From: Parachlamydiales bacterium
GTDB taxonomy: Bacteria; Chlamydiota; Chlamydiia; Chlamydiales; Rhabdochlamydiaceae
DNA: 64,000 nt
Direction: 5' to 3'
Assembly: GCA_963705295.1 (NCBI GenBank)
Contig: OY970065.1
Span: 512,001 to 576,000, forward strand
Position 1 is the stretch's first letter. Every line of letters begins with the position of its first letter. The notes beneath the pieces are model-generated. The model saw only the letters and a list, made by a program, of their open reading frames with translations. It searched no databases and had not been told where the DNA came from. The translations under genes were made by a program, and so were the position numbers. This document shows positions 10,850 to 63,431 of the stretch, in pieces.

Positions 10850-12580
10850 ATGCTTAGAACGATATCGAATTTTTTAACCGGTTATGCTCTCGGATTTCAT
10901 TACGAACGAACCCAATTTGAAGAAGAAGCAACTTTGCGGGGAGGAAGCCATTATTTTACCGCCAGTCTTCAAATTTCTCAATTGTTACAATTGAATGACC
11001 TCATCCAAATTCTCCCTTTAAATGCTAGAAGGGTCCAAGTCTGGTCAGGGCGGCTCACCCTTCTGAGTATTCCTCTTTATCTTTACTTGGCCTACAGGCG
11101 TGAGAACCATGATCAAAATCTCAGGCGGAAAATTACTACCCCACGACCTTATTTTATCGATTTCATTGTCGAACGAACAGGGACAGTGGTTCGCATTTGC
11201 TGGGTTGCGATGGGAATTTTTACGACACTCAAAATCGATCGATTTTTAGGAACCGGGATTTTGATGGGAATGGCTATAAAGTGGACCCCACAATATCTGA
11301 GTACTGTTTTGTCTGCTTTCTCCGTGGTATCGACCATCACCTTACTGGGTAAGGGGAATGTTCTTATTCGAGCTAGAAATTTCTTTTATATTTTCTCATT
11401 CTTTTGCAGCTTGAAAGGGCTTTCTCTCAGTCAAATGGGACAAAAAAAAGTCGACGGCTGGCTTCATAACATCATCGATTTAGGACCCACTCTTACAGAG
11501 ATCGAAAGGCCTTGCTGGGAAAAAAGGATTTTGAATTACGAACAAATCCTGGAAATTCTGGATGGCCGATCTAGCCAATATGAGATTGATCCTGCGCACT
11601 GTAGTAAAGAGACGTTTGATCCAAAGAATTTTCCGACATGTCACAATTTTGGAAAATTATTGGAGTTATTCGATCAAATCGATTGGGGAAAAAAATATCA
11701 ATGTATCTTGCTCAAACTGAAGTCGGATCGAAGATTTTTGACTTTTTTAAATCGAGAAAATATCGATGCCGATTTGGAAAAGAGTATCGAAATACTCGCT
11801 AGCCGAAAAGGGATAACAAAAGAAAAATACGTAATCCAATGGACCCGCGAGCAATTAGAGCTACTTGTGAACGGCCTGAGCAGGAAAATTCCGGTTCCAG
11901 GAGAAAAGCATGAACTTGAAAAAAGCATTGAGAATTGTTCGTATATTTTACCTTACTTGAGTCATCTAAAAGATCCCATCGAACTTGAAGATACTCTTTT
12001 AGAGCTTGCCATCGAGGGCGGTTTTTATTGCACGCAAGGGATCAAAATGACAACAGATTTGCTTTTGGACAGGGTTATCCAGGCCGGATCAAATCTCAGC
12101 ACACCGGCCGAAATTTACGAATTCAAGTTGAAAAGACTCCTTCAAAGGGCTCGTTTTATTATTTTAGCCAATTTTTATAAGGATTTTTTCCCCATGGGAC
12201 ATGAATCCCTTAGGGATCTCCATTTATTTTCCCTCCTGATCGTCTACTTGGGATACGGATTTATTCCTCTCAAGTGCGACATCGGAAAAAACTTATTCCA
12301 TCTTTTGATATGGGAACTTTGTGGAATTTATCGGTCGTTGATTTTCTTTTTATACTACAAAATCCTCGACGATTTGGTGAAAGAAAATGGTGTTCAGCCC
12401 TTCTGGGATTATTTTAGAACCGAGCTTTTGAAAGACCTCACACCCACGCAAAAAGAACACATCGAAGAAATCTGCATGACCAACAATCACGGGGCATGGC
12501 CTCCCGATGAAACCCGGCACCGTTTCTACCGCCTCATGCTCGTCAGTTTACGCATCATCAGAGAGAAAACGTGCTCTTGA
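10850..12580 (+). CDS. Hypothetical protein with N-terminal hydrophobic segments
   Basis: Long ORF (591 aa from the first possible start) with several TM-like stretches; no recognised domain; start uncertain. Confidence 0.65.
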   Translation: MLRTISNFLTGYALGFHYERTQFEEEATLRGGSHYFTASLQISQLLQLNDLIQILPLNARRVQVWSGRLTLLSIPLYLYLAYRRENHDQNLRRKITTPRPYFIDFIVERTGTVVRICWVAMGIFTTLKIDRFLGTGILMGMAIKWTPQYLSTVLSAFSVVSTITLLGKGNVLIRARNFFYIFSFFCSLKGLSLSQMGQKKVDGWLHNIIDLGPTLTEIERPCWEKRILNYEQILEILDGRSSQYEIDPAHCSKETFDPKNFPTCHNFGKLLELFDQIDWGKKYQCILLKLKSDRRFLTFLNRENIDADLEKSIEILASRKGITKEKYVIQWTREQLELLVNGLSRKIPVPGEKHELEKSIENCSYILPYLSHLKDPIELEDTLLELAIEGGFYCTQGIKMTTDLLLDRVIQAGSNLSTPAEIYEFKLKRLLQRARFIILANFYKDFFPMGHESLRDLHLFSLLIVYLGYGFIPLKCDIGKNLFHLLIWELCGIYRSLIFFLYYKILDDLVKENGVQPFWDYFRTELLKDLTPTQKEHIEEICMTNNHGAWPPDETRHRFYRLMLVSLRIIREKTCS

Positions 12581-12675
12581 GGATTTGTCGAAAATAGATA
12601 AATCTTTGAAAGAATTGACATTATTTGATCGTATATGTTTATATTTGATCATAACCTTTAACCAAGGAGATTTGT

Positions 12676-60713: not shown

Positions 60714-62622
60714 TTTGAAACAACAGATGAAGAGTCACTTTCTCCAATATGCCTCGTATGTGATTCTCGATCGAGCCATCCCGCATGCGATTGATGGGCT
60801 AAAACCGGTGCAACGACGGATTTTGGAGACGCTCTGGAAACAAAACGATGACAAACTCCATAAAGTGGCCAATATTGTCGGGCAGACGATGCAGCTCCAT
60901 CCGCATGGTGATGCTCCGATCTATGAAGCCCTAGTCAATCTCGCCAATAAGGGTTTTCTCCTCGATCAGCAAGGGAATTTCGGTAATATCTATACGGGTG
61001 ATCCGTCTGCAGCTGCTCGGTATATTGAAACGCGGCTTTCGGCGCTCGCTCGCGAAACCCTCTTTAATCCCGACATCACCGAGAAATTACCGTCCTACGA
61101 TGGGAGAAATTTAGAGCCGGTTACACTTCCGGCCAAAATCCCTCTACTCCTGATGCAAGGGGCAAGCGGTATTGCCGTAGGGATGTCGACGTATATTCTC
61201 CCTCACAACTTCACCGAGCTGCTCGAAGCGGAGATCGCTTACCTCGAAGGAAGAGACTTTAAATTTTTCCCCGACTTTCCGACGGGCGGGATCATGGATA
61301 AGAGCCAATATGACAAAGGGCGGGGAAAAATCAAACTCCGCGCTAAAATCGAGATCAAAGATCCCAAAACTCTCGTCATCCGGGAAATTTGTTATGGAAC
61401 AACGACCGAGAGCTTGATCCGATCGATCGACGAAGCGGCGAAGAAAGGGAAAATAAAGATCGAAGGGATCAACGACTACACGGCCCGCACTGTCGAAATC
61501 GAAATCAAACTCCCGCGGGGACAATATGCTGAGGAGATTCTCGATGCTCTGTATGCCTTTACCGAGTGCGAAGTCTCTCTTTCTTCACAAATCATGGTCA
61601 TCAAGGACGGATTTCCTTGGGAGACAGATGTCCATGAGATTTTGACGTATAATGCCGAAAAACTCATCGAGTTTCTCAGACGCGAGCTCGAGATCGAGCG
61701 AGACCGTCTCCTTGAAAAGATTTTCTACAAGACCCTAGAGAGGATTTTTATCGAAAACCGGCTCTACAAGAAGATCGAGACCGTCAAAACCCTAGAGGGG
61801 ATCCATACGACTCTGGAAGCTTCCTTCAAGCCGTATTTAAAACAGCTGCTGCGCGAGCCGACCCATGATGACCGAGAAAAGCTTCTCCAGATCCCGATCC
61901 GCCGGATTTCCCGCTTTGATATCGATAAAAACCAAGAAGAGATCGCAGCTCTCGAAGAAAGTCTTGCTGCGACCCTGAAAGACCTCAAGAATGTGAAAAA
62001 ATTCACGATTGCCTACCTCAAAAAGCTCATTCTAAAATATGGAAAAGAGTTTCCGAGAAAAACACGCATCAAGGCGATCGAAGAGATCGATAGACGGGCC
62101 ATCGAGACCAAACAGATCAAAGTCGGCTTCGACCCCACCAGCGGCTTTATCGGCACCAAAGTCTCCGGCCCCATCCAGCTCGAATGCACCAATTTTGACA
62201 AACTTCTTATCTTCTACAAAGATGGAACCTACACTGCGATCAACATTCCCGAAAAACAATACATCGAGAAAGTCGCCCATGTGGGCATTGCAGACAAAAA
62301 GTCAGTCATGAATGTCGTCTACAAAAACCCCGACACCCGTCAAGCCTGGGCGAAACGGTTTGTCGTCGATAAGTTCATCCTCGATAAAACCTACACCTAC
62401 CTTGAGCCCAACCAAGAACTCCACCACTTCTCTGCCAATAACGAGCCCACCGTGGAGCTCCACTTCACGCCCAAACCCCGCCAAAAACTCAAAAAGCTCC
62501 TCTACTCATTCAAAGACGTCCTCGTCAAAAATCCCTCCGCCCGGGGCACCCGCATGGCCAACCAAGAGGTCAAAAAAATCACCTCAGGCAAAGACGCCCT
62601 CAAGCAGCCAACCCTCTTCTAA
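60706..62622 (+). CDS. parC: Type IIA topoisomerase subunit A (chlamydial gyrA2 / topo IV A)
   Basis: RAIP..DGLKPVQRRIL, HPHGD, AARY catalytic Tyr, PDFPTGG. Confidence 0.9.
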   Translation: MDDLKQQMKSHFLQYASYVILDRAIPHAIDGLKPVQRRILETLWKQNDDKLHKVANIVGQTMQLHPHGDAPIYEALVNLANKGFLLDQQGNFGNIYTGDPSAAARYIETRLSALARETLFNPDITEKLPSYDGRNLEPVTLPAKIPLLLMQGASGIAVGMSTYILPHNFTELLEAEIAYLEGRDFKFFPDFPTGGIMDKSQYDKGRGKIKLRAKIEIKDPKTLVIREICYGTTTESLIRSIDEAAKKGKIKIEGINDYTARTVEIEIKLPRGQYAEEILDALYAFTECEVSLSSQIMVIKDGFPWETDVHEILTYNAEKLIEFLRRELEIERDRLLEKIFYKTLERIFIENRLYKKIETVKTLEGIHTTLEASFKPYLKQLLREPTHDDREKLLQIPIRRISRFDIDKNQEEIAALEESLAATLKDLKNVKKFTIAYLKKLILKYGKEFPRKTRIKAIEEIDRRAIETKQIKVGFDPTSGFIGTKVSGPIQLECTNFDKLLIFYKDGTYTAINIPEKQYIEKVAHVGIADKKSVMNVVYKNPDTRQAWAKRFVVDKFILDKTYTYLEPNQELHHFSANNEPTVELHFTPKPRQKLKKLLYSFKDVLVKNPSARGTRMANQEVKKITSGKDALKQPTLF

Positions 62623-63431
62623 AAAAGTCGATTTTCCTCCGGAGAGACAAACTCCCGGGGATTTTCGCTATAATAGTTGTAGATGATTTGATACGCCTTC
62701 GGCTGAATAATTTGTGGCTCGCGGAACGGATTGTCGAGCGCATAGACCACATAAATCATGAAAGCAAAATAACCCACAAACAACGTATTAATCGACAGCT
62801 GCGCCCAGAAATTCTCCGTCCCAAAAAAGAACAATAGAGAAAGAAGGACAACCCCACCCAAAATGAGCGCTATCCACGAGATCATTCCCAGTGATTCCCA
62901 GCTTGAATAGATCCGTTCCAGTCTTGCGCTGTTCAGATCCAGCAGAATATTCACCGTCTTGCCAAACCAAATCTTCTCCACTTCTGTCCCAGGCTGAAAC
63001 TTATAATATTCCGCCCACATCCCTTCCATTTTCTCCAAAGTCAACGGACTCTCCTTCTTTTCACCCATCAGCGGCCATTCATCCACCACAATCGACTTCA
63101 GATACTCCTTGATAGCCCCTTGCGCCTTCCCCCTTATCGGCTCTCCAAATGCCGCCGTCGCCCGATATAAATCACCACAAAGATAAGCTTCCTTATTCAC
63201 CTTCTCCAATATATGCCCCTGCCTCTCTTGCGATCCCACAATCGTAAATCCCAAGAATACACTATACAACGTCCCCAACGTCGCAATCACAAACCCTGCA
63301 AAATCATGATGCTTCCTCAGCGTCCCCGTCCTCACCCACCCCCTCACCACCAAAAAAATCCCCGCCGAAACAAAAACCGCGACAAGAACGATGGTTAAAC
63401 AGAGCGCAATCCAGGAAGAAGTTAGATTCAT
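62619..63431 (-). CDS. Membrane protein, DUF4239-like
   Basis: G.LY.VFLGF, Y..SIV.DEWP.M, ALDNPF; four TM. Confidence 0.65.
   Translation of the reverse strand: MNLTSSWIALCLTIVLVAVFVSAGIFLVVRGWVRTGTLRKHHDFAGFVIATLGTLYSVFLGFTIVGSQERQGHILEKVNKEAYLCGDLYRATAAFGEPIRGKAQGAIKEYLKSIVVDEWPLMGEKKESPLTLEKMEGMWAEYYKFQPGTEVEKIWFGKTVNILLDLNSARLERIYSSWESLGMISWIALILGGVVLLSLLFFFGTENFWAQLSINTLFVGYFAFMIYVVYALDNPFREPQIIQPKAYQIIYNYYSENPREFVSPEENRLF

What the first reader, a model, noticed from the sequence alone, without database searches (positions are those of the whole stretch)
12420..63430. Strand skew flips from C-rich to G-rich across AT-rich islands, independent of gene direction
Seen (hand counts per 60 nt of + strand): left of islands the strand is C-rich and G-poor, e.g. 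40561-40620 C33/G7, 41821-41880 C28/G10, 63301-63360 C27/G5. The same is visible near 12420-12560, 25960-26160, 47500-47900 and 62100-62600. Right of islands it is G-rich and C-poor, e.g. 13381-13440 G28/C5, 53521-53580 G30/C3, 58261-58320 G28/C10, and near 5470-5640. It affects sense and antisense strands of core genes (mcsB, gpsA, parC, carbonic anhydrase) and fades within about 0.5-1.5 kb. One exception: the right side of the 42-44.9 kb block stays C-rich. Inference: the strand running away from each island is G/T-enriched, like a small replication-origin signature. Candidate causes are ssDNA deamination from outward transcription or repeated recombination at hotspots, or selection for C-rich Rho-loading tracts facing the islands. 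I know of no description of this pattern.
Basis: partly seen in the sequence, partly recalled or inferred. Interest (0 to 1): 0.75.

Follow-up and report, generated by a model that had tools for sequence, protein, structure and literature searches.

The report
Polar G/C-skew scars beside gene-order breaks
In this chlamydia-like bacterium, the conserved DNA next to inserted or rearranged genes carries kilobase-long stretches where one strand is packed with G and the other with C, always pointing the same way relative to the junction. No paper found in my searches describes this pattern, and it probably records repeated DNA repair or recombination at these spots.

Summary
All six hand counts reproduce exactly. 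A segment scan finds 86 extreme-skew tracts in the 2.13-Mb genome, 8 of them in the window. Local shuffles give 0.

The better predictor is a break in conserved gene order, not AT-richness. At 428 synteny-block edges (versus relative G004), the strand running 5'->3' away from the edge into the conserved block is G-rich. Mean skew is +0.115 against -0.001 at 1138 control edges (p=5e-32). Skew exceeds +0.3 at 14.3% of edges and never falls below -0.3.

The effect:
- decays within about 1 kb and is absent on the accessory side;
- is independent of replication direction and largely of gene direction;
- is strongest beside AT-rich neighbours.

It is lineage-specific: G004 has 9 tracts, and orthologues lack them. 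It sits mainly at synonymous sites. All three other bases become G, with no A/T skew. Simple deamination therefore does not fit.

Best reading (about 0.45): a cumulative footprint of junction-anchored, one-strand recombination or repair synthesis. The main rival is selection for Rho-loading RNA facing accessory DNA. I found no published description.

The parts
13325..13882 (+). Tract, G-rich on the + strand (skew +0.42). It covers the 3' half of the mcsB-like gene (13302-14351, - strand), so the coding strand is C-rich. The sharp edge is at the gene's stop, next to the AT-rich island 12583-13319.
   Evidence: Five of five relatives keep mcsA-mcsB together but none has the downstream genes. Orthologous codons in relatives have normal third-position G/C.
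25566..26418 (-). Tract, G-rich on the - strand (+ strand skew -0.38). It covers the 5' 84% of gpsA (25411-26403, -), so the coding strand is G-rich. The sharp edge is at the gene start and divergent spacer.
   Evidence: yjeF-gpsA adjacency is kept in 5 of 5 relatives, and the neighbouring hydrolase (26517-27719) is found next to gpsA in 0 of 5. Relatives lack the skew.
39516..41067 (-). Tract, G-rich on the - strand (skew -0.42, GC 0.52). It covers the 5' 1.3 kb of the 3067-aa NRPS gene (31595-40798, -), the divergent spacer and the first ~210 nt of the ORF called for the PARG-like gene.
41440..41914 (-). Tract, C-rich on the + strand (skew -0.46). It covers the 3' half of the PARG-like gene (40855-41934, +). 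The sharp edge is at its stop, abutting the AT-rich island 41928-44072.
   Evidence: The tract gene has a G004 orthologue and its neighbour has none.
47500..48992 (-). C-rich + strand (called tract 48134-48992, skew -0.39; 47500-47903 has skew -0.39). It spans the OTU-like gene (47904-48836, -) and runs up to the island 49282-53306. Weaker C-richness continues at 42986-45282 on the other side of the IS607-like element.
45283..47499 (+). IS607-like element (serine resolvase plus TnpB-like ORFs). It is unskewed (-0.02) and sits inside the C-rich gradient.
   Evidence: Pfam Resolvase and Cas12f1-like_TNB hits; segment skews.
53307..53873 (+). Strongest tract in the window, G-rich on the + strand (skew +0.61). 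It covers the 3' half of an MFS transporter gene (53277-54542, -). The sharp edge is at its stop, next to the island 49282-53306.
58160..59373 (+). Tract, G-rich on the + strand (skew +0.40). It crosses the whole carbonic anhydrase gene (58136-58753, -; skew +0.36), the non-coding divergent spacer (58754-58904; skew +0.52) and the first 469 nt of parE (58905-60713, +; skew +0.39).
   Evidence: parE-parC adjacency is kept in 11 of 11 relatives, and carbonic anhydrase is upstream of parE in 0 of 11. Relatives' parE lacks the skew.
62100..63378 (-). C-rich + strand: the parC 3' end (62100-62622, skew -0.34) plus the bestrophin-like gene (62619-63431, -; skew -0.35; called tract 62849-63378, -0.52). 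It strengthens towards the island that starts at 63416.
   Evidence: Polarised changes in the parC 3' end: 19 gains of C against 4 gains of G.
12583..13319 (.). AT-rich segment (GC 0.32).
   Evidence: Independent AT-rich segmentation.
41928..44072 (.). AT-rich segment (GC 0.33). It holds an unassigned ORF and part of an ankyrin/TPR/RING-like gene.
49282..53306 (.). AT-rich island (GC 0.32, skew +0.06) with aromatic amino acid lyase, methyltransferase and MFS genes. It is flanked by mirrored tracts on both sides.
55555..57571 (.). AT-rich segment (GC 0.34). There is a tract on its right only.
63416..63895 (.). AT-rich segment (GC 0.28). There is a tract on its left. The next G-rich tract (genome 576245-579312) lies just beyond the window's end.

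Best explanation
The tracts are the accumulated footprint of a local, strand-polar substitution bias. It acts on conserved DNA directly abutting places where gene order was broken by inserted or replaced accessory genes or by rearrangement.

On each side of such a junction, the strand that runs 5'->3' away from it gains G from A, C and T, and also loses C to T. The effect is greatest at the junction and fades over roughly 1 kb.

I think the most likely cause is repeated recombination or break-repair events anchored at the junction. Heterology fixes one end of every event. End resection, one-strand resynthesis or outward recombination-primed synthesis therefore always involves the same strand polarity on a given side. 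The polymerase or lesion spectrum of that synthesis (G-favouring, like the genome's own leading-strand bias but about 17 times stronger) then dominates local sequence evolution.

Shown: the geometry, the link to synteny-block edges, lineage specificity, gradual accumulation under purifying selection, and independence from replication direction and largely from gene direction.

Inferred: that recombination or repair is the driver, and which enzyme writes the G bias.
For: 1. Anchor. At 428 synteny-block edges (reciprocal best hits against the whole genome of relative G004), oriented skew in the first 400 bp is +0.115 against -0.001 at 1138 control gene edges (Mann-Whitney p=5e-32). Skew exceeds +0.3 in 14.3% against 1.4%, and falls below -0.3 in 0% against 2.5%.

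2. Junction status. For the 69 tracts that start at a gene edge, the junction on the sharp side is syntenic in 5, broken in 13 and next to a gene without orthologue in 51. The far-side junction is syntenic in 37. Of 57 junctions traced further, 31 are gains or replacements between flanks that are still neighbours in G004. Examples are 8 genes (10.5 kb) against 0, and 3 genes (4.1 kb) against 0.

3. One-sidedness. There is no skew on the accessory side or in the 200 bp outside the block. Non-coding DNA inside a tract is skewed: the CA-parE spacer has +0.52.

4. Not replication. After subtracting baseline skew, the excess is 0.118 when the block lies downstream of the edge in fork direction and 0.114 when it lies upstream.

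5. Not gene direction or transcription-unit ends. Both 3' ends (mean 0.133) and 5' ends (0.088) are affected. The effect holds at operon-like junctions (0.072 against -0.013, p=8e-16) and at transcription-unit boundaries (0.087 against 0.027, p=4e-6).

6. Gradual accumulation, not one hit. Third codon positions shift most (C3 0.51 or G3 0.385 against 0.23/0.19). Protein identity to G004 orthologues is the same inside and outside tracts (0.664 against 0.669, n=57 genes, p=0.43).

7. Lineage-specific. Orthologues of parE, mcsB and gpsA lack the tracts. G004 has 9 tracts in 2.26 Mb against 86 here. G004's own block edges show only +0.023 against -0.009.

8. Same kind of asymmetry as replication. 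It is pure G over C with no A/T component.

9. Established context. Core genes flanking gene-transfer hotspots recombine more often (Oliveira et al. 2017, PMC5635113, passages read).
Against: No recombination or break was observed directly. No closer strain (best 88-89% ParE identity) and no sequencing run was available, so there is no polarised polymorphism spectrum.

The spectrum (A, C and T all to G; A and T lost about equally) matches no textbook lesion or polymerase signature that I can name. It looks as much like a fixation bias as a mutation bias.

ssDNA damage on resected 3' tails at a break inside the island would predict the opposite polarity for C loss.

The repair repertoire gives no clue. 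UDG, endonuclease V, MutS and one Y-family polymerase are present here, and all four in low-tract relative G004 as well.

No shared sequence motif marks the junctions.

Gene calls are my own longest-ORF calls. Edges are defined against a single relative, so events on either lineage are mixed.
Confidence: 0.45

Rival explanations
1. Selection, or another fixation bias, for C-rich and G-poor RNA on any transcript that reads towards accessory DNA. Rho would load and stop transcription at the junction. This would insulate silenced foreign genes from read-in, or replace terminators lost in the rearrangement.
For: The strand reading towards the junction has C about 0.37-0.39 and G about 0.13-0.15, which is a rut-like composition.

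A and T fall equally, as expected if only C is favoured and G disfavoured.

Rho is present, and hairpin-plus-T terminators are rare at gene ends in general (14% of 400 control ends).

The effect is stronger at gene 3' ends (17.2% strong) than at 5' ends (9.9%), and stronger beside AT-rich DNA (rho=-0.23, p=2e-6).

Rho/NusG is known to block transcriptional invasion of H-NS-silenced islands in Salmonella (PMC6797219, abstract read).
Against: Tracts are 0.2-3 kb long, far more than the roughly 80 nt I recall for a rut site.

They lie in translated sequence and change amino-acid usage (Gly 13.6% against 4.5%, Pro 2.7% against 7.3%). The untranslated spacer beyond the stop is unskewed.

Gene 5' ends are affected too, where only antisense RNA would be C-rich.

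The effect persists at operon-like junctions, many with overlapping or <40-bp gaps.

Tract-bearing 3' ends do not lack intrinsic terminators more than controls (19% of 26 against 14% of 400, p=0.32).

Relatives with Rho (G004, G007) have few tracts.

By inference, per-site selection this weak should be ineffective in an intracellular bacterium.
Confidence: 0.2
2. Outward transcription from promoters in the AT-rich DNA (with or without R-loops) exposes the non-template strand of the flank. This causes strand-specific damage. It is the reader's first candidate.
For: The polarity fits: the non-template strand of an outward transcript is the G-rich one. At two-fold sites that strand shows A->G and C->T shifts. 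G-rich RNA would favour R-loops, which could be self-reinforcing (inference).
Against: Skew starts at the end of the conserved gene, not inside the accessory DNA where such transcripts would begin. The accessory side has zero skew.

The effect also occurs at plain rearrangement breakpoints and beside GC-normal neighbours.

Transversions to G and the loss of T are not deamination products.

The annotated genes in 60 of 82 tracts are transcribed towards the junction.
Confidence: 0.1
3. The islands fire as small replication origins (integrated replicons or R-loop-primed initiation), so short bidirectional forks imprint a leading-strand skew on both flanks.
For: The polarity is mirrored. The asymmetry is of the same kind as the chromosome's own replication skew (G over C, no A/T component).
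Against: The window's islands encode no recognisable replication or initiator proteins (Pfam). Junctions without any island (rearrangement breaks) are affected. The island interior is unskewed rather than showing a switch point. No shared motif or iterons were found at junctions.
Confidence: 0.07
4. The tracts are imported alleles: pieces of the flanking core genes that arrived with the island from a donor lineage with a different composition.
For: A sharp edge at the island and a variable inner end are what recombination tracts look like.
Against: Protein identity to G004 orthologues is not lower inside tracts. A donor's composition would give the same skew sign on both flanks, not mirrored signs. 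The skew grades away smoothly.
Confidence: 0.03
5. Chance or an assembly artefact.
For: None found.
Against: Local shuffles give 0 tracts. The tracts keep long open reading frames with Pfam domains and full-length orthologues. The genome is one contig, so no contig edges are involved.
Confidence: 0.01

Closest known systems
Replication-associated GC skew (leading strand G>C)
   Same: The asymmetry is of the same kind. At four-fold sites both are G over C with no A/T component. The G-rich strand is the one that runs away from the anchor point, as from an origin.
   Different: The tracts are about 17 times stronger (0.426 against 0.025), about 1 kb long instead of a whole replichore, and anchored at gene-order breaks. 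The excess does not depend on fork direction.
Homologous recombination at core genes flanking gene-transfer hotspots (Oliveira et al. 2017, PMC5635113; passages read)
   Same: The location is the same: the first conserved genes next to turnover-prone accessory DNA. 31 of 57 junctions are gains or replacements between flanks that are adjacent in the relative.
   Different: The passages I read from that work report more recombination and diversity. They do not mention a strand-polar composition change.
GC-biased gene conversion in bacteria (Lassalle et al. 2015, PMC4450053; listing and start of abstract only)
   Same: There is a local rise in GC at synonymous sites (GC4 0.63 against 0.48) at presumed recombination sites.
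   Different: By its definition (recalled), biased conversion favours G and C alike on both strands. Here only G rises on one strand and C falls.
Strand-coordinated mutation clusters at double-strand breaks and break-induced replication (yeast and cancer; PMC6786661, PMC9262586; listings and starts of abstracts only)
   Same: One strand is affected on each side of a break, the strand switches across the break, and the tracts are kilobase-scale.
   Different: Those are single-event clusters. As I recall, they are mostly cytosine damage in a TC context. Here there is no dinucleotide context, all bases go to G, and the pattern accumulated slowly under purifying selection.
Rho utilisation sites, and Rho/NusG blocking transcription into silenced islands (Bossi et al. 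2019, PMC6797219; abstract)
   Same: The RNA facing AT-rich foreign DNA is C-rich and G-poor.
   Different: The tracts are ten or more times longer than the rut length I recall, lie inside coding sequence on both sense and antisense strands, and leave the spacer unskewed. Termination was not tested.
Transcription-associated strand asymmetry (excess C->T on the non-transcribed strand; recalled, no paper read)
   Same: It is a strand-specific composition bias within genes.
   Different: Here the sign does not follow the gene's direction, and the coding strand is C-rich in 60 of 82 tracts.

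Membership tests
Replication-associated GC skew | The sign follows the direction of fork movement and switches only at origin and terminus. 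| tested here: not met
   Excess skew at block edges is 0.118 with the fork direction and 0.114 against it. Mirrored pairs flank single islands, e.g. 48134-48992 and 53307-53873.
Replication-associated GC skew | G over C on one strand at neutral sites. | tested here: met
   Four-fold sites: G 0.527, C 0.101 in tracts. The chromosome's leading strand has G 0.254, C 0.229.
Transcription-associated strand asymmetry | The sign follows the transcribed strand of the gene. | tested here: not met
   The coding strand is C-rich in 60 and G-rich in 22 of 82 tracts. One tract crosses two divergent genes.
Rho utilisation (rut) region | C-rich, G-poor RNA upstream of the stop point. | tested here: met
   The strand reading towards the junction has C about 0.37-0.39 and G about 0.13-0.15 in the first 300 nt.
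Rho utilisation (rut) region | Short (roughly 80 nt, recalled) and accessible, i.e. untranslated, RNA. | tested here: not met
   Tracts are 211-3068 bp and lie within coding sequence. The spacer outside the gene is unskewed.
Rho utilisation (rut) region | Rho-dependent 3' ends downstream. | not testable with these tools
   No RNA data were available; no sequencing run was listed.
GC-biased gene conversion tract | A rise of GC at synonymous sites in recombining DNA. | tested here: met
   GC at four-fold sites is 0.628 against 0.483.
GC-biased gene conversion tract | Strand-symmetric: G and C rise together. | tested here: not met
   G rises by 0.285 while C falls by 0.141 on the same strand.
Break-associated strand-coordinated clusters (kataegis-like) | The affected strand switches across the break. 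| tested here: met
   Oriented skew is positive on both sides and never below -0.3 at 428 edges.
Break-associated strand-coordinated clusters (kataegis-like) | A deaminase-type context and a C-only spectrum from a single event. | tested here: not met
   Dinucleotide odds in tracts equal those of the genome. A, C and T all go to G. Protein identity is unchanged, so change was gradual.
Core flank of a gene-gain or turnover hotspot | A conserved gene next to lineage-specific genes, with flanks still adjacent or near in a relative. | tested here: met
   The boundary-side neighbour lacks an orthologue in 51 of 69 tracts. The flanks lie at the same locus in G004 for 31 of 57.
Core flank of a gene-gain or turnover hotspot | Elevated homologous recombination in the flank. 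| not testable with these tools
   No genomes closer than 88-89% ParE identity were found.

The most novel reading that the evidence does not exclude
Chlamydia-like bacteria have a junction-anchored, outward-directed, G-writing DNA synthesis or repair process. It leaves a polar 'scar' on the conserved side of every long-lived gene-gain or rearrangement junction. Such scars would be a new, sequence-only marker that locates, orients and roughly dates gene-order changes. They would also expose a recombination-linked mutational mechanism, with its own spectrum (all bases to G on one strand), that no paper returned by my searches describes in bacteria.
Probability: 0.35. Interest if true: 0.8.

Novelty: new variant of a known kind. 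Interest (0 to 1): 0.7.

Why it matters
Strand composition skews are used to find origins, inversions and transcription effects. All of these are thought to work at the scale of replichores or genes.

Here a skew about 17 times stronger than the replication skew is tied to something else: the edges of conserved gene blocks next to acquired or rearranged DNA. It has strict polarity, and it is strong enough to change the amino-acid usage of core proteins such as ParE, ParC, GpsA and McsB.

If the cause is recombination or repair, this gives a readable record of where and for how long a genome has been exchanging accessory genes. It also gives a handle on repair in organisms that are hard to manipulate genetically.

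If the cause is Rho-related selection, it would be a genome-wide insulation system for foreign DNA.

Either way, the test used here (oriented skew at synteny-block edges) can be run on any pair of related genomes.

Tried and rejected
- **Within-gene shuffles as a null**. They keep about half the tracts, because many tracts fill a short gene. I replaced them with local block shuffles.
- **Replichore dependence.** Tract sign equals replichore sign in 64 of 86. This turned out to be a threshold effect of the baseline skew, because the excess over controls is equal on both sides. I therefore dropped a RecBCD/Chi-orientation explanation.
- **Junction motif.** The commonest k-mers at 86 sharp edges are generic T-rich words. 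The best is TTTTTCTA, in 10 of 86 against 27 of 1138.
- **Short multi-copy ~168-bp repeats as break sources.** They lie near only 5 of 86 tract edges, against 23 of 428 block edges and 16 of 1138 controls.
- **Insertion-sequence flanks as a test of recent insertions.** The genome has no repeats of >=700 bp at >=95% identity.
- **Loss of a repair gene.** UDG, endonuclease V, MutS, a Y-family polymerase and Rho are all present in this genome.
- **Intrinsic terminators.** They are not depleted at tract-bearing 3' ends.
- **Closer relatives for polarised spectra.** None closer than 88-89% ParE identity was found in genomes or metagenomes. Parsimony on parE/parC gave only 17 and 41 polarised changes in the two tracts.
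- **Sequencing runs.** None was listed, and no RNA holder was listed.
- **Naming the organism by a 30-nt exact search.** No match.
- **More relatives' genome sequence** (G003, G016) for tract density.
- **Earlier notes of this scan on skew.** None fitted.
- **Literature.** Five searches found no description of island- or breakpoint-anchored polar skew. The Waddlia genome paper (passages) discusses only the global cumulative skew. I do not know that this genome is Waddlia.

Full report
**What was checked first**

The window is bases 512001-576000 of a single-contig 2,131,910-bp genome with 43.8% GC. The looser intervals are skewed in the stated direction. The 500-bp profile shows skews up to -0.48 and +0.53, with GC rising to 0.52-0.55.

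I defined tracts with a maximal-segment scan (G-C minus 0.12 per base, minimum score 40). This gives 86 tracts genome-wide: 45 G-rich and 41 C-rich on the + strand, 64,660 bp in all. Eight lie in the window.

Shuffling 3-nt blocks inside 10-kb windows gives 0 tracts in both runs. Coarser blocks give a few. Within-gene codon shuffles keep 38-43, and synonymous shuffles keep 52-53, because many tracts occupy most of a short gene. That null is therefore uninformative about chance.

**Polarity and the island link**

- G-rich tracts have the AT-richer 1-kb flank on their left in 34 of 45 cases, on the right in 1, and on neither side in 10.
- C-rich tracts have it on the right in 25 of 41, on the left in 2, and on neither side in 14.
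- Aligned on their sharp end, tracts start abruptly. Skew goes from -0.08 to +0.52 within 100 bp. It declines to below 0.1 by about 1.5-2 kb. The outside flank has GC 0.41 and no skew.
- An independent segmentation of AT-rich DNA (37 islands, 5 in the window) shows + strand skew of +0.05 to +0.08 on the right and about -0.09 to -0.10 on the left for the first several hundred bases.

However, only a minority of the 86 tracts sit beside a strongly AT-rich island.

**What the tracts sit on**

Pfam confirms the window's genes:

| Gene | Coordinates and strand |
|---|---|
| McsB-like kinase | 13302-14351 (-) |
| GpsA | 25411-26403 (-) |
| 3067-aa NRPS | 31595-40798 (-) |
| PARG-like protein | 40855-41934 (+) |
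| Ankyrin/TPR/RING-like protein | 42986-44719 (-) |
| IS607-like resolvase plus TnpB-like ORFs | 45283-47499 (+) |
| OTU-like protein | 47904-48836 (-) |
| Two MFS transporters | 52004-53209 (-), 53277-54542 (-) |
| Carbonic anhydrase | 58136-58753 (-) |
| ParE | 58905-60713 (+) |
| ParC | 60706-62622 (+) |
| Bestrophin-like protein | 62619-63431 (-) |

I made my own longest-ORF gene calls (1852 ORFs; not curated). With these, the sharp end of a tract lies within about 80 bp of a gene edge in most cases. In 60 of 82 tracts it is the gene's 3' end, so the coding strand is C-rich. In 22 it is the 5' end, so the coding strand is G-rich. Four tracts had no called gene at the test point.

One window tract (58160-59373) runs through a whole gene on one strand, a non-coding spacer (skew +0.52) and the start of a gene on the other strand.

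**Where in the codon**

The shift is largest at third positions.

- In C-rich-coding tracts: C3 0.512 against 0.232, G3 0.088 against 0.194.
- In G-rich-coding tracts: G3 0.385 against 0.194, C3 0.107 against 0.232.

It also reaches positions 1 and 2 and changes amino-acid usage: Gly 13.6% against 4.5%, and Pro 2.7% against 7.3%, between the two classes.

At two-fold sites the G-rich strand shows A->G and C->T preferences. At four-fold sites G gains from all other bases.

Averaging the two coding classes, four-fold sites on the G-rich strand are G 0.527, C 0.101, A 0.193, T 0.179. The background is 0.242, 0.242, 0.258, 0.258. So G-C is 0.426, T-A is -0.015, and GC4 is 0.628 against 0.483.

The chromosome's own leading strand has G-C 0.025 and T-A 0.002. 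The strand is therefore not G/T-enriched. It is G-enriched only, the same kind of asymmetry as the replication skew but about 17 times stronger.

Dinucleotide odds ratios in tracts equal those of the genome, so there is no context signature.

**Lineage specificity**

Same-genus relatives have ParE at 84-89% identity.

In codon alignments, the relatives (11 for parE, 5 each for mcsB and gpsA) show normal third-position G and C exactly where this genome is skewed. For parE codons 81-160, this genome has G3 0.45-0.47 and C3 0.03-0.15. The relatives have G3 0.12-0.16 and C3 0.36-0.45 (profiles).

| Sequence examined | Size | Tracts |
|---|---|---|
| This genome | 2.13 Mb | 86 |
| Relative G004, whole assembly, 42.7% GC (fetched) | 2,257,809 bp | 9 |
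| Relative G007, first part | 400 kb | 1 |
| 106 loci of assorted relatives and metagenome contigs | 797,341 bp | 12 |

Among those loci, relative G003 has a C-rich-coding tract ending at the 3' end of its own mcsB. The phenomenon therefore exists elsewhere in the group but is much denser here.

**The anchor is a break in gene order**

In the window, relatives keep the neighbour on the far side of three tracts but never the one on the sharp side (flanks of 1.5 kb or less).

| Far-side pair kept | Sharp-side neighbour found |
|---|---|
| mcsA-mcsB, 5 of 5 | genes beyond the mcsB stop, 0 of 5 |
| yjeF-gpsA, 5 of 5 | hydrolase upstream of gpsA, 0 of 5 |
| parE-parC, 11 of 11 | carbonic anhydrase and the two ORFs beyond it, 0 of 11 |

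Genome-wide, reciprocal best hits against G004 give 1032 orthologue pairs with median 70% identity. Of the 86 tracts, 13 that start more than 150 bp inside a gene and 4 without a gene were dropped, leaving 69 that start at a gene edge.

| Junction | Syntenic | Broken | Neighbour without orthologue |
|---|---|---|---|
| Sharp side (69 tracts) | 5 | 13 | 51 |
| Far side (69 tracts) | 37 | 9 | 23 |
| All 1851 junctions | 569 | 157 | 1125 |

A test that does not use the tract calls gives the same answer. At 428 edges of synteny blocks I measured the skew of the strand running 5'->3' away from the edge into the block.

- In the first 400 bp it averages +0.115, against -0.001 at 1138 gene edges inside blocks (Mann-Whitney p=5e-32).
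- It exceeds +0.3 at 14.3% of edges against 1.4%.
- It is below -0.3 at 0% against 2.5%.
- It fades by about 1 kb, and the DNA outside the block is unskewed.
- The result holds separately for operon-like junctions (0.072 against -0.013, p=8e-16) and for transcription-unit boundaries (0.087 against 0.027, p=4e-6).
- It holds for plain rearrangement breakpoints (excess 0.094) as well as for neighbours without orthologue (0.125).
- It grows as the outside DNA gets more AT-rich: Spearman -0.23, p=2e-6, with excess 0.24 for GC below 0.36, though n=8.

Of 57 tract junctions traced to the next conserved gene, 31 have both flanks at the same G004 locus. These are gains or replacements, several against an empty site. 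A further 25 have the flanks on different G004 contigs, and 1 has them far apart.

G004's own block edges show only +0.023 against -0.009, with 0.4% above 0.3.

**What it does not depend on**

- *Replication direction.* Tract sign equals replichore sign in 64 of 86. But the excess over controls is 0.118 when the block lies downstream of the edge in fork direction and 0.114 when it lies upstream. The 64:22 split is therefore a threshold effect of the baseline skew. Replichore limits are approximate.
- *Gene direction.* Both ends are affected: 3' ends 0.133, 5' ends 0.088.
- *A sequence motif.* None was found.
- *The ~168-bp multi-copy repeats.* They lie near 5 of 86 tract edges.

**Tempo**

Protein identity to G004 orthologues is the same in tract and non-tract parts of the same genes (0.664 against 0.669, 57 genes, p=0.43). 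Yet third positions at conserved residues, oriented to the G-rich strand, read A->G 0.57, C->G 0.34, C->T 0.31 and T->G 0.26. Replacements are directional but conservative, for example I>V, A>G and K>E in G-rich coding.

I polarised changes by parsimony at sites conserved in 12-26 relatives. There are 17 changes in the parE tract, of which 10 are losses of C. There are 41 in the parC 3' end, with 19 gains of C (7 from A, 5 from G, 7 from T) against 4 gains of G. The counts are small.

A single hypermutation event would have damaged the proteins. This looks like a bias applied over a long time and filtered by purifying selection.

**Mechanism**

Any explanation needs these properties:
- a fixed anchor at the end of conserved DNA;
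- mirrored strand polarity;
- kilobase decay;
- persistence;
- no effect on the accessory side;
- a G-favouring spectrum like the leading-strand bias.

Repeated recombination or break repair at the junction supplies the first four. Heterology fixes one end of heteroduplex, resection and fill-in. The strand resynthesised or extended outward is always the one running away from the junction. Core genes flanking transfer hotspots are known to recombine more (PMC5635113, passages).

The unskewed accessory DNA would then be either too young or resynthesised on both strands. This is inference.

I give this reading 0.45. The weak points are:
- the spectrum is unexplained;
- C-loss by damage to resected 3' tails from a break inside the island would have the opposite polarity;
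- no repair-gene difference was found. UDG, endonuclease V, MutS and a Y-family polymerase are present both here and in G004.

The main rival (0.2) is selection for Rho-loading RNA facing accessory DNA, with the Salmonella NusG/Rho precedent (PMC6797219, abstract). Composition, the equal loss of A and T, the rarity of intrinsic terminators and the presence of Rho fit it. Against it are the tract length, the location in translated sequence with an unskewed spacer, the effect at gene 5' ends and operon-like junctions, and the scarcity of tracts in relatives that also have Rho.

Outward transcription or R-loops (0.1), mini-origins (0.07), imported alleles (0.03) and artefact (0.01) fit less well, for the reasons given under rival explanations.

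C-richness right of the 42-44.9 kb block continues on both sides of the IS607-like element: -0.28 before it, -0.02 inside it, -0.39 after it. It strengthens towards the 49.3-kb island. It therefore reads as one gradient belonging to that island's left junction, later split by the insertion. This is an inference from composition only.

**Novelty**

Five full-text searches found nothing on polar skew anchored at islands or breakpoints. The Waddlia genome paper (passages) mentions only the global cumulative skew, and I do not know that this genome is Waddlia. Earlier notes of this scan call the genome chlamydia-like and describe other features. None concerns skew.

I class it as a new variant of a known kind, namely strand compositional asymmetry.

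**Limits**

- Gene calls and orthology are my own.
- Edges are defined against one relative in 12 contigs, so events on both lineages are mixed and 'different contig' cases are unresolved.
- No closer strain, reads or RNA data were available.
- Further relatives could not be fetched.

Noticed in passing
window 45283-47499: An IS607-like element: a MerR-HTH serine resolvase (45283-45909) followed by two ORFs (45896-46699, 46696-47499), the second with a Cas12f1-like TNB domain. The TnpB-like gene appears split in two. The element is unskewed while both of its flanks are C-rich.
   Followed up: partly
window 31595-40798: A 3067-aa non-ribosomal peptide synthetase on the - strand (three AMP-binding, two condensation and three carrier domains, a weak sub-threshold nitroreductase-like hit and a thioesterase). 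It has no reciprocal-best orthologue in relative G004.
   Followed up: no
window 42986-44719 and 47904-48836: Eukaryote-like genes in the AT-rich block: an ankyrin/TPR protein with weak, sub-threshold RING-finger hits, and an OTU-like cysteine protease (also a weak hit). Both are candidate host-directed ubiquitin-pathway effectors.
   Followed up: no
window 5868-6034: A 167-bp repeat with about 42 similar copies in the genome (104 such intervals in all, median 168 bp). These are probably the mobile palindrome noted earlier in this genome. The repeats are enriched at synteny-block edges (23 of 428 against 16 of 1138 control edges) but do not explain the tracts.
   Followed up: partly
window 40855-41067: The first ~70 codons of the ORF called for the PARG-like gene are C-rich and precede the Pfam domain, which starts at residue 87. 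The true start may lie further downstream, and this stretch may be spacer belonging to the NRPS-side tract.
   Followed up: no
genome 1294291-1298988 and 1299021-1303715 (outside the window): Two tandem ~1566-aa paralogues, 86% identical over their 3' 2.9 kb. Each has a G-rich-coding tract at 7-30% of its length, starting inside the gene rather than at an edge. They may be a different kind of skewed region.
   Followed up: no
L022 (relative G003, mcsB locus) 1131-2320: This more distant relative has its own C-rich-coding tract ending at the 3' end of mcsB, followed by AT-rich DNA (GC 0.35). That is the same junction as in the window, which suggests a recurrent hotspot.
   Followed up: partly
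L217 (metagenome contig) 5600-12500: This contig shows a broad positive skew of +0.2 to +0.4 over many kilobases, across parE, parC and neighbouring genes. That is unlike the short tracts here and may reflect a genome with a very strong replication skew.
   Followed up: no
whole genome: By my ORF calls, only 895 of 1852 genes lie on the leading strand, so there is no gene-strand bias. Hairpin-plus-T terminators follow only about 14% of sampled gene ends.
   Followed up: partly
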